Source: a virus. Taken from it: 10,449 bases of DNA. The notes beneath the pieces were generated by a model. It ran no database searches. It saw only the letters and a list, made by a program, of their open reading frames with translations, and had not been told where the DNA came from. Location: UHGV virus genome UHGV-1344453; one strand, written 5' to 3'. The position numbers and the translations under genes were made by a program. The first letter of the stretch is position 1, and each line of letters begins with the position of its first letter. Below are positions 9,488-9,643 of this stretch, one piece after another.

Positions 9488-9643
9488 TTTGCGGGTTTTT
9501 TGAGGGGTGTTTGCGGGTTATTTTGAATGTCTTGCGGGTTACACTCTGGCTGATATTTAAATACGTTGTTTTTTAACGTATTGATATTAAAGAGTAAAAA
9601 ATGCTTAGCACGCGAAGATAACCCGCTAACCCGCATAACCCGC
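9488..9643. repeat. Organised repeat array: 3 direct TTGCGGGTT copies, a central AT-rich palindrome, then 3 inverted copies (AACCCGC)
   Basis: Direct copies start at 9488, 9510 and 9531 (~21 bp phasing). Palindrome AATACGTT-N7-AACGTATT at 9560-9582. Inverted copies at 9618-9626, 9627-9634 and 9635-9643. No convincing ORF. Confidence 0.6.

What the first reader, a model, noticed from the sequence alone, without database searches (positions are those of the whole stretch)
9488..9643. Symmetric repeat architecture downstream of terL
Three TTGCGGGTT copies are phased at ~21 bp. They are followed by an AT-rich core with the perfect palindrome AATACGTT-N7-AACGTATT, then three tightly packed inverted copies (AACCCGC). 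This ordered arrangement looks like a protein-binding locus such as TerS recognition repeats, a second origin, or a regulatory switch. No convincing ORF covers it, and a (TA)7 tract follows.
Basis: seen in the sequence. Interest (0 to 1): 0.6.

Follow-up and report, generated by a model that had tools for sequence, protein, structure and literature searches.

The report
Orphan replication-origin module in phage satellite
The repeats after terL are real and form half of an iteron-type replication origin used by one family of E. coli phage satellites, but this mosaic satellite carries a different replication protein with its own origin elsewhere, so the module is probably a mismatched leftover of recombination, not a packaging site.

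Summary
There are three TTGCGGGTT copies 22 and 21 bp apart, an AT-rich core, three close-packed AACCCGC copies and a (TA)7 tract. Six of the window's seven GCGGGTT sites lie in 156 bp.

The window is a capsid-forming PICI inserted in the thiM TPP riboswitch. The locus ("module B") is homologous to DNA immediately 3' of the DUF927-type pri-rep gene of the prototype EcCIEDL933, where PICI origins lie. There it adjoins a mirror-image module A with the same iteron.

Four iteron types (GCGGGTTA, GTGGGTTA, GGTTGTCCC, TGTTGGTTCA) are each used in both modules of one element. The type tracks the last ~120 residues of the Rep, while the helicase cores stay 99-100% identical. Module B was found in 20 of 20 evaluable DUF927-Rep elements. 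It is usually kilobases from A, next to attR, like P4 ori and crr.

The window's own Rep is P4-alpha-like, with nine TGTTCACC iterons right after its gene. So module B is non-cognate here: an "orphan", as in 10 of 29 elements with other Rep types.

The TerS reading fails: an identical TerS occurs without the module, and satellites with no annotated terminase genes carry it. The "second origin" reading is partly right. The palindrome is not conserved, but a central IHF consensus is. This is a new variant of a known kind, of moderate interest.

The parts
9489..9540 (+). Left iteron array. Three direct copies of TTGCGGGTT(A) at 9489, 9511 and 9532, spaced 22 and 21 bp (about two helical turns).
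   Evidence: The iterons are conserved across 29 distinct variants of the module while the spacers vary.
9541..9617 (.). AT-rich core between the two iteron arrays (G+C about 0.34-0.37). It contains the lineage-specific palindrome AATACGTT-N7-AACGTATT (9560-9582).
   Evidence: The perfect palindrome is present in only 2 of 29 variants.
9574..9586 (-). IHF-consensus match TATCAATACGTTA (WATCAANNNNTTR), at the centre of the core.
   Evidence: It is the only match in the whole 10.4-kb window on both strands. The consensus is kept in 28 of 29 module variants. IHF binding itself is inferred, not shown.
9618..9643 (-). Right iteron array. Three close-packed inverted copies (ATAACCCGC, CTAACCCGC, ATAACCCGC), spaced 8 and 9 bp.
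   Evidence: Twenty-four of 29 variants keep all six perfect 7-mers.
9648..9674 (+). Conserved tail TTTTG-(TA)7-CGAAAAAT. This is a candidate DNA-unwinding element. The TA count varies from 4 to 7 between elements.
   Evidence: The tail is conserved after B-type modules of all four iteron classes. The unwinding role is inferred.
1320..1505 (.). The element's own rep-proximal origin. Nine TGTTCACC iterons, direct and inverted, surround AT-rich stretches immediately 3' of the P4-alpha-like primase-helicase gene. The region runs into an N-masked stretch at 1519-1562.
   Evidence: TGTTCACC is the annotated type-1 repeat of P4 ori and crr.
3..1310 (+). 3' two-thirds of the resident replication gene (D5_N, DUF5906 and Pox_D5 domains). 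It is a P4-alpha-like helicase with an origin-binding C-terminus, cut by the window start.
   Evidence: The full-length homologue in L001 is 51% identical to P4 alpha residues 320-771.
7408..9409 (+). terS (7408-7764, P27-family Terminase_4) and terL (7748-9409), immediately upstream of the locus. They are context only and are not functionally tied to the locus.
10023..10036 (+). attR core AGAAATACCCGTAT, the right end of the element, inside the thiM TPP riboswitch.
   Evidence: The same 14 bp lies at both ends of the homologous element in L001. Element-free genomes match only from window 10023 onward, under a feature annotated 'riboswitch'. The Rfam TPP match is truncated and falls below the gathering score.
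9893..9963 (+). Probable integrase arm-type sites. These are TTGTTCGT-type repeats and a tandem TGTGTGGTCAGT x2 (9933-9956).
   Evidence: The ~75-bp block is repeated beside both attL and attR in L001. The arm-site role is inferred from position.

Best explanation
The locus is one half ("module B") of a two-part iteron replication origin. That origin belongs to the DUF927-type primase-helicase (Pri-Rep) replicon of Escherichia coli phage-inducible chromosomal islands.

In cognate elements, the inferred mechanism is as follows.
1. The variable C-terminal domain of the Rep, about 120 residues with a weak HTH_56 (Cch-like) match, binds the 8-9-bp iteron (T)GCGGGTTA.
2. Three copies phased at two helical turns face three close-packed inverted copies across an AT-rich core.
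3. The core carries an IHF consensus, so bending would bring the two arrays together.
4. Melting would occur in the core or in the adjoining (TA)n tail, and the self-loading helicase-primase would start synthesis.

Module B works with a mirror-image module A that lies just 3' of rep. The two modules are either adjacent (EcCIEDL933) or kilobases apart with B next to attR, as with P4 ori and crr.

In this window the element is a mosaic. Its Rep is P4-alpha-like and has its own TGTTCACC origin at 1320-1505. Module B is therefore a non-cognate "orphan". It was most likely carried in with the terS-terL-attR segment by recent recombination, and it is idle unless a GCGGGTTA-specific Rep is supplied in trans.

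Shown here: homology, architecture, iteron/Rep C-terminus covariation, and the mismatch with the resident Rep. Inferred: Rep and IHF binding, the melting site, and inactivity in this element.
For: 1. **Homology to an origin position.** The module matches the intergenic DNA directly 3' of the DUF927 pri-rep gene of EcCIEDL933. [quoted passage not shown]
2. **Covariation.** Four iteron types are each used in both the A-type and B-type modules of one element: GCGGGTTA, GTGGGTTA, GGTTGTCCC and TGTTGGTTCA. The layout and the TTTTG(TA)nCG.GAAAAAT tail stay the same.
3. **Iteron type tracks the Rep C-terminus.**
   - EDL933 vs L076: helicase core 99% identical, C-terminus 42%.
   - L094 vs L095: core 100%, C-terminus 54%.
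   - Reps sharing an iteron: C-terminus 87-93%.
   - The EDL933 Rep has a weak HTH_56 match at residues 635-704.
4. **Association.** Eighteen of 20 evaluable DUF927-Rep cf-PICIs have module B after terL. The other two have it fused to module A (L076 with its own GGTTGTCCC iteron). By contrast, 10 of 29 elements with other Reps have it (Fisher p = 1.2e-4).
5. **Mismatch in the window.**
   - The resident Rep family is 51% identical to P4 alpha, including the C-terminus.
   - Nine TGTTCACC iterons, the annotated P4 type-1 repeat, follow the gene.
   - No module A and no homologue of the DUF927 C-terminus is present.
6. **Mosaicism.**
   - Window 7562-10117 is 99.8-100% identical (500-bp bins) to L012, which has a third Rep class.
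   - Window 8062-9561 is 98.8-99.8% identical to a DUF927-type element.
   - The capsid region is only 67-81% identical to L012.
7. **Dispensability with this Rep.** Five of 10 cf-PICIs with the P4-alpha-like Rep lack module B.
8. **P4 precedent.** P4 has iteron loci about 4.5 kb apart, with crr about 200 bp from attP.
Against: - No binding or replication experiment exists for this iteron. Nothing relevant was found in the searchable literature.
- In L076, L094 and L095 the Rep C-terminus, module A and module B are contiguous. Their joint change could reflect block transfer rather than independent co-evolution. Even so, reuse of one iteron in both modules across four classes still argues for a single binder.
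- Orphan modules are common: 10 of 29 non-DUF927 elements. They are as intact as cognate ones, most with all six perfect iterons. That fits recent exchange, but it also fits a function independent of the cis-encoded Rep.
- The association statistic is not corrected for shared ancestry.
- The left part of the window's own element, upstream of rep, is not in the window. It was judged from the rep type and from a relative (L001).
Confidence: 0.72

Rival explanations
1. The module is functional in this element as a trans-acting handle. A GCGGGTTA-specific DUF927 Rep from a co-resident island would fire it, giving cross-replication. Alternatively it would titrate that Rep, giving competition or incompatibility between satellites.
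For: - Orphan modules occur with at least three other Rep/iteron classes, and most keep all six perfect iterons.
- Some genomes carry several B-bearing elements, up to 5 places per genome.
- Module B places (318) outnumber module A places (263) in complete E. coli genomes.
Against: - At least 48 genomes carry module B with no module A anywhere: 300 genomes against 252. A partner is therefore often absent.
- Near-identity of orphan and cognate copies (96.9-100%) means intactness needs no selection to explain it.
- Half of the cf-PICIs with the same Rep as the window lack the module.
Confidence: 0.15
2. The repeats are TerS recognition sites, that is, a cosB-like or pac site for the element's own terminase.
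For: - The locus lies 82 bp after terL in the window and in many relatives.
- Repeats flanking an IHF consensus resemble the lambda cosB layout (from memory).
Against: - Many loci with a TerS 99-100% identical to the window's have no module. Most loci that carry it have an 87-91% TerS allele.
- The module occurs in satellites with no annotated terminase genes (L008, L010, L011).
- In EcCIEDL933 it lies next to rep, about 6 kb upstream of terS.
- In other elements it lies 480-1260 bp from terL.
- TerL relatives in Shigella, Serratia and Mannheimia lack it.
- HK97-type systems place cos between HNH and terS (established knowledge).
Confidence: 0.03
3. The repeats are architectural sites for site-specific recombination at attR or attP, bound by integrase arm domains or by the AlpA/Xis-like protein.
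For: - The locus lies within about 400-530 bp of the attR core, in non-coding DNA.
- Close-packed head-to-tail repeats resemble Xis filament sites (from memory).
Against: - The module occurs beside at least four different attachment sites: the thiM riboswitch, dinD, cspD/clpS and a prophage terL.
- In EcCIEDL933, L076, L094 and L095 it is internal, beside rep.
- A different ~75-bp repeat block, nearer the core and present on both arms, fits arm-type sites better.
- Iteron type follows the Rep C-terminus.
Confidence: 0.04
4. The locus is a transcriptional operator or promoter switch. Rep or another regulator would bind the iterons to control transcription reading rightward, towards attR and thiM when integrated or towards int when circular.
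For: - Where modules A and B are adjacent, the conserved TA-rich tail lies 10-25 bp upstream of the ribosome-binding site and start codon of the next gene.
- Iteron-binding initiators often autoregulate (general knowledge).
Against: - No sigma-70-like promoter was found in 9380-10130; shuffles gave 2.1 on average.
- In the window no gene follows the module before attR.
- Rfam finds no RNA family over the locus.
Confidence: 0.08

Closest known systems
PICI replication origins: SaPI ori and E. coli PICI ori (Fillol-Salom et al. 2018, PMC6092414)
   Same: - Two sets of short iterons in opposite orientation flank an AT-rich stretch.
- The iteron sequence is specific to the Rep allele.
- The homologous module lies immediately 3' of pri-rep in EcCIEDL933, L076, L094 and L095.
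   Different: - In the window, and in most DUF927-type cf-PICIs, the module lies about 8 kb from rep, after terL and next to attR.
- It is one of two mirror-image modules.
- In the window it does not match the resident Rep, which has its own TGTTCACC origin.
Satellite phage P4 ori and crr (cis replication region)
   Same: - Two separate loci carry the same Rep-specific iteron, kilobases apart.
- One of them lies close to attP: P4 crr 4291-4590 against the attP core at 4078-4097.
- The initiator is a primase-helicase with a C-terminal origin-binding domain.
   Different: - The iteron differs: GCGGGTTA against TGTTCACC.
- The cognate initiator has a different helicase domain: DUF927 against D5/DUF5906.
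- The layout differs: crr is two 120-bp direct repeats.
- In this window the P4-like iterons and the P4-alpha-like Rep form the other origin, not this locus.
Lambda-type cosB (R sites flanking an IHF site, bound by the small terminase)
   Same: Repeats in both orientations lie around an IHF consensus, close to terminase genes.
   Different: - The module does not co-vary with TerS.
- It is present in satellites with no annotated terminase genes.
- It is absent from elements with an identical TerS.
- It is not adjacent to the expected HK97-type cos position between HNH and terS.
SCCmec Cch and SaPI Rep self-loading MCM-like helicases (DUF927 family)
   Same: The cognate initiator carries DUF927. 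It also has a weak match to the Cch HTH domain (HTH_56) in the part that co-varies with the iteron.
   Different: - The HTH_56 match is below Pfam's cut-off.
- Any comparison of the origins used by these helicases with the two-module layout seen here was not made here.

Membership tests
PICI-type iteron replication origin | Two sets of iterons in opposite orientation flank an AT-rich region. | tested here: met
   Three direct and three inverted GCGGGTT copies surround a 77-bp core with G+C of 0.34-0.37. The description of the family comes from PMC6092414.
PICI-type iteron replication origin | The origin lies immediately 3' of the replication initiator (pri-rep) gene. | tested here: not met
   In the window the locus is about 8 kb from rep, after terL. 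The position 3' of rep is occupied by TGTTCACC iterons. The feature is met by the homologous module in EcCIEDL933, L076, L094 and L095.
PICI-type iteron replication origin | The iterons are cognate to the Rep encoded in the same element. | tested here: not met
   The resident Rep is P4-alpha-like and is followed by P4-type TGTTCACC iterons. GCGGGTTA goes with a particular DUF927 Rep C-terminus. No homologue of that C-terminus is present in the window.
PICI-type iteron replication origin | The origin supports Rep-dependent autonomous replication. | not testable with these tools
   This needs a plasmid-maintenance or qPCR replication assay with Rep supplied in cis or in trans.
P4 crr-like distal cis replication region | The locus carries the same iteron as a second origin locus in the same element, at a distance. 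| tested here: not met
   The feature is met in DUF927-type relatives: modules A and B are 8-11 kb apart in L008, L009, L011 and the other split DUF927-type loci. It is not met in the window or in L001, which have no second GCGGGTT cluster.
P4 crr-like distal cis replication region | The locus is required in cis for replication. | not testable with these tools
   This needs a deletion of module B in a cognate island. The only indirect support is that module B is present in 20 of 20 evaluable DUF927-Rep elements.
Terminase recognition site (cosB or pac) | The site co-occurs and co-varies with the TerS that recognises it. | tested here: not met
   A TerS 100% identical to the window's occurs in many loci without the module. 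Satellites with no annotated terminase genes have the module.
Terminase recognition site (cosB or pac) | Packaged DNA ends map at or next to the site. | not testable with these tools
   No virion-end data are available. The literature on cf-PICIs that could be read does not give a cos position.
attP arm-type recombinase sites | The sites are specific to one integrase and att site, and flank the core. | tested here: not met
   The same module occurs at four different att sites and also internally beside rep. A different repeat block flanks the core on both arms.

The most novel reading that the evidence does not exclude
Heterologous half-origins kept next to attR are not relics but a cross-talk device. 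A satellite with one Rep type carries the distal origin module of another Rep type. It can then be replicated by a co-resident satellite's initiator, or it can sequester that initiator. That would amount to hyper-parasitism or incompatibility between phage satellites, mediated by origin DNA alone.
Probability: 0.12. Interest if true: 0.7.

Novelty: new variant of a known kind. Interest (0 to 1): 0.4.

Why it matters
**Annotation.** The result corrects an easy mis-annotation: repeats after terL are not a packaging signal here.

**How these replicons are built.** The data indicate that the DUF927-type satellite replicon, which includes the prototype capsid-forming PICI EcCIEDL933, uses a two-module, mirror-symmetric origin.
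- The two halves can sit kilobases apart.
- Specificity is set by a swappable C-terminal domain of about 120 residues.
- Four natural iteron/domain pairs are identified here. They form a ready-made set for testing how these self-loading helicases read their origins.

**Evolution of satellites.** Replication modules are exchanged between satellites independently of the packaging and att modules. This leaves mismatched origin halves in roughly a third of the non-DUF927 elements sampled. If those orphan halves are active in trans, satellites could replicate or inhibit each other. That would matter for how islands carrying virulence or defence genes coexist.

Tried and rejected
- **Origin for the resident Rep.** Rejected after finding the TGTTCACC origin at 1320-1505 and the match to P4 alpha.
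- **TerS or cos site.** Rejected on the distribution of the module.
- **Int/Xis arm sites.** Rejected.
- **Promoter.** The scan found nothing.
- **Structured RNA.**
  - Rfam gave only the truncated TPP riboswitch.
  - It also gave a sub-threshold "drum" match at 9753-9865 (22 bits against a cut-off of 43), outside the locus.
- **The palindrome as a binding site.** Not conserved: 2 of 29 variants.
- **Distant TerL relatives.** GTDB species representatives gave only five loci, and none had the module after terL.
- **Literature search for the iteron strings.** It returned only unrelated primer sequences.
- **Phage and plasmid collections.** There was no genuine phage or plasmid copy of the module.
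- **E. coli A34 as the window's source.** It turned out to be a rearranged locus that joins a cspD-side island to the thiM side. It was not informative.
- **The apparent capsid frameshift.** The split into 3009-3788 and 3745-4224 is an artefact of an N-masked run at 3760-3772.

Full report
**1.

- TTGCGGGTT occurs at 9489, 9511 and 9532, spaced 22 and 21 bp.
- AATACGTT-N7-AACGTATT lies at 9560-9582.
- AACCCGC occurs at 9620, 9628 and 9637, spaced 8 and 9 bp.
- (TA)7 lies at 9653-9666.
- GCGGGTT occurs 7 times in the window against 2.07 expected, and 0 of 200 shuffles reached 7. Six of the seven copies lie in this 156-bp stretch.
- G+C falls to 0.34-0.37 across the core.

**2. Context: a capsid-forming PICI inserted in the thiM riboswitch**

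The window encodes the following genes.

| Coordinates | Gene or domain |
|---|---|
| 3-1310 | D5_N/DUF5906/Pox_D5 primase-helicase, cut by the window start |
| 1841-2251 | SSB |
| 2142-2519 | PerC |
| 3009-4224 | HK97-type capsid |
| 4260-4835 | Prohead protease |
| 4837-6051 | Portal |
| 6048-6386 | Head completion (head closure) protein |
| 6383-6679 | Head-tail connector protein |
| 6679-7119 | HNH endonuclease |
| 7408-7764 | P27-family TerS |
| 7748-9409 | TerL |

- This is the gene set of capsid-forming PICIs (10.1101/2022.09.08.507074).
- The apparent split of the capsid gene is caused by an N-masked run at 3760-3772.
- Positions 9410 to about 10022 are non-coding. thiM starts at 10119.
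- Rfam finds only the 3' part of the TPP riboswitch.
- In a complete homologous element (L001, E. coli CEA106S, between rcnR and thiM), the 14-bp core AGAAATACCCGTAT lies at both ends. The 5' half of the riboswitch is left at attL.
- Element-free genomes match the window only from 10023 onward.
- A ~75-bp block with TTGTTCGT-type repeats and tandem TGTGTGGTCAGT lies beside both cores. It is the better candidate for integrase arm sites.

**3. The element has another origin that fits its own Rep**

- Nine TGTTCACC copies, direct and inverted around AT-rich DNA, lie immediately 3' of the primase-helicase gene at 1320-1505.
- TGTTCACC is the annotated type-1 repeat of P4 ori and crr.
- The full-length Rep of this class is 51% identical to P4 alpha residues 320-771, including the C-terminal origin-binding region.
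[quoted passage not shown] A rep-ori segment was shown to replicate (PMC6092414).
- The resident replicon is therefore accounted for without the finding.

**4. What the finding is homologous to**

- The 201-bp locus has relatives in 300 of 5426 complete E. coli genomes.
- In the prototype cf-PICI EcCIEDL933, the homologous DNA lies directly after the DUF927-type pri-rep gene (L007; rep 13666-15798, iterons 15822-16135). It forms the second of two sub-modules.
  - Module A has two packed direct GCGGGTTA copies, then AT-rich DNA, then four phased inverted copies.
  - Module B has two direct copies 21 bp apart, an AT core, close-packed inverted copies (two perfect and one variant) and a TA tract.
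- The reverse complement of module B has the same layout as module A. Together the two modules form a large dyad.
- In other DUF927-Rep elements module A stays beside rep, while module B lies 8-11 kb away at the right end next to attR. Examples are L008 and L011 at dinD and L009 inside a prophage terL.
- P4 offers a precedent. Its ori and crr share one iteron and lie about 4.5 kb apart, and crr is about 200 bp from attP.

**5. Who binds it: covariation**

Among 80 IMG/VR loci with TerL 94-100% identical, plus two records from the phage collection, four iteron types were found. Each type is used in both the A-type and the B-type module of its element.

| Iteron | Where found |
|---|---|
| GCGGGTTA | Many elements |
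| GGTTGTCCC | L076 |
| TGTTGGTTCA | L094, a cf-PICI-like region in the record of Klebsiella phage P12620-1 |
| GTGGGTTA | L095 |

- The layout is unchanged across all four, as is the non-iteron tail TTTTG(TA)nCG.GAAAAAT.
- The iteron type follows the last ~120 residues of the Rep and nothing else.

| Rep pair | Helicase core identity | C-terminus identity |
|---|---|---|
| EDL933 vs L076 | 99% | 42% |
| L094 vs L095 | 100% | 54% |
| Reps sharing GCGGGTTA | 93-96% | 87-93% |

- The one-base variant GTGGGTTA goes with the nearest C-terminus, 66-67% identical to the GCGGGTTA types.
- The C-terminus gives a weak HTH_56 (Cch HTH) match.
- I infer that the Rep C-terminal domain reads the iterons of both modules.
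- One caveat applies. In the three variant cases the C-terminus, module A and module B are contiguous, so linkage contributes to the pattern.

**6. Distribution**

- Module B lies downstream of terL in 18 of 20 evaluable DUF927-Rep cf-PICIs. The other two carry it fused to module A, giving 20 of 20.
- It also occurs in 10 of 29 elements with other Reps:
  - 5 of 10 with the P4-alpha-like Rep,
  - 1 of 6 with the 584-aa primase type,
  - 4 of 13 with other types.
- Fisher p is 1.2e-4, without correction for relatedness.
- Those other elements have their own rep-proximal iterons: TGTTCACC, (C)TGTCTACC or TCTACC, and AAGTGGGG.
- They have no homologue of the DUF927 C-terminus.
- In complete genomes module B is found at 318 places in 300 genomes, and module A at 263 places in 252 genomes. 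At least 48 genomes therefore have module B with no module A.

**7. The window's copy is an orphan in a mosaic element**

- Window 7562-10117 is 99.8-100% identical (500-bp bins) to L012, whose Rep is the 584-aa type.
- Window 8062-9561 is 98.8-99.8% identical to the DUF927-type L015.
- The capsid-portal region is only 67-81% identical to either element.
- The replication module and the terS-terL-B-attR segment thus have different histories.
- All Rep classes share the same N-terminal ~140 residues and the same upstream genes. This offers a ready crossover point (inference).

**8. Conserved anatomy of module B**

- Twenty-four of 29 distinct variants keep all six perfect 7-mers.
- An IHF consensus at the centre is kept in 28 of 29 variants. 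In the window it is TATCAATACGTTA at 9574-9586 on the minus strand, and it is the only match in the window.
- The TA tract varies from 4 to 7 repeats.

**9. Rivals**

- **TerS site.** Rejected.
  - An identical TerS occurs without the module.
  - Most elements that carry the module have an 87-91% TerS allele.
  - Satellites with no annotated terminase genes carry it.
  - Distant TerL relatives lack it.
- **Recombination arm sites.** Rejected. The module occurs at four different att sites and also internally beside rep.
- **Promoter or operator.** There is no sigma-70-like site. A secondary regulatory role cannot be excluded, because the tail lies just upstream of the next gene where modules A and B are adjacent.
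- **Trans-acting function of orphan copies.** This remains open.
- **Phage or plasmid origin.** No genuine phage or plasmid carries the module.

**10. Verdict**

- The feature is real and ordered.
- Its kind is known: a PICI/P4-type iteron origin.
- Its arrangement, to my knowledge, has not been described. It is the distal, mirror-image half of a two-module origin, placed next to attR. Here it is mismatched with the resident initiator.
- Rep binding, IHF binding, the melting site and inactivity in this element are inferences that need the experiments listed under next steps.

Noticed in passing
window 10023-10118 (attR core 10023-10036); L001 1340-1418 (attL): The satellite is integrated inside the thiM TPP riboswitch aptamer. 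The 5' half of the aptamer and the native promoter side stay at attL, about 15 kb away. Only the 3' half precedes thiM-thiD. Seventy-six of 5426 complete E. coli genomes carry this junction. How thiMD is expressed and regulated in such strains is unclear.
   Followed up: partly
window 1320-1505: This is a P4-type origin. Nine TGTTCACC iterons, identical to the annotated P4 ori/crr type-1 repeat, lie right after a Rep whose helicase and C-terminal regions are 51% identical to P4 alpha. All of this sits inside a capsid-forming PICI rather than a P4-like satellite.
   Followed up: yes
window 1519-1562 and 3760-3772: These are runs of N (masked sequence). The second run makes the major capsid gene look split into two ORFs (3009-3788 and 3745-4224). 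The split is not a real frameshift.
   Followed up: yes
window 9893-9963; L001 1505-1580 and 16531-16607: A ~75-bp block with TTGTTCGT-type repeats and tandem TGTGTGGTCAGT x2 is present next to both attL and attR. These are probably integrase arm-type sites.
   Followed up: partly
window 9798-9870: ATAACGG occurs three times (9800, 9833, 9854). A 15-nt inverted repeat GGTTATCCGTAATCA / TGATAACGGATAGCC lies at 9806-9845. The region is partly conserved in other islands (L001, L010). It overlaps a sub-threshold Rfam 'drum' match (9753-9865, 22 bits against a cut-off of 43). Its function is unknown.
   Followed up: no
window 9669-9760: A conserved ~90-bp segment lies just right of the module (GAAAAATTGCATTCAGGA..GGGGATCGAAAT.CC..). 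It contains a small hairpin. It travels with module B in several islands, and it also occurs without the module in other genomes.
   Followed up: no
L001, L007 and L010 rep genes (first ~140 codons); window rep is cut: Three Rep classes (P4-alpha-like, DUF927 and the 584-aa primase type) start with the same N-terminal sequence (MKLAPNVKKQPRGIKHKDTEVIIFAGSDAW...). They share about 62-96% identity over roughly 140 residues, then diverge completely. This suggests a common N-terminal domain, possibly a primase, fused to interchangeable helicase and origin-binding parts.
   Followed up: partly
L009 (E. coli GPT24-02) 382-1410 and 16453-17196: A cf-PICI with the same module B is inserted inside the terL gene of a resident lambdoid prophage and splits that gene. 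So a satellite is integrated into a phage packaging gene.
   Followed up: no
L093 (E. coli A34) 2523-17160: The locus joins the cspD-side integrase end of one island to the thiM-side right end of another. It contains a frameshifted DUF927 rep and LPS glycosyltransferase genes (waaB, waaO). This looks like a rearrangement between two islands.
   Followed up: no
L094 (PQ569648.1, 'Klebsiella phage P12620-1', 96.8-104.2 kb): The 106-kb phage record contains a cf-PICI-like segment: a DUF927 Rep, a two-module origin with TGTTGGTTCA iterons, and ORFs placed and sized like the capsid and protease genes. This suggests a satellite was co-assembled with, or inserted in, the deposited phage genome.
   Followed up: partly
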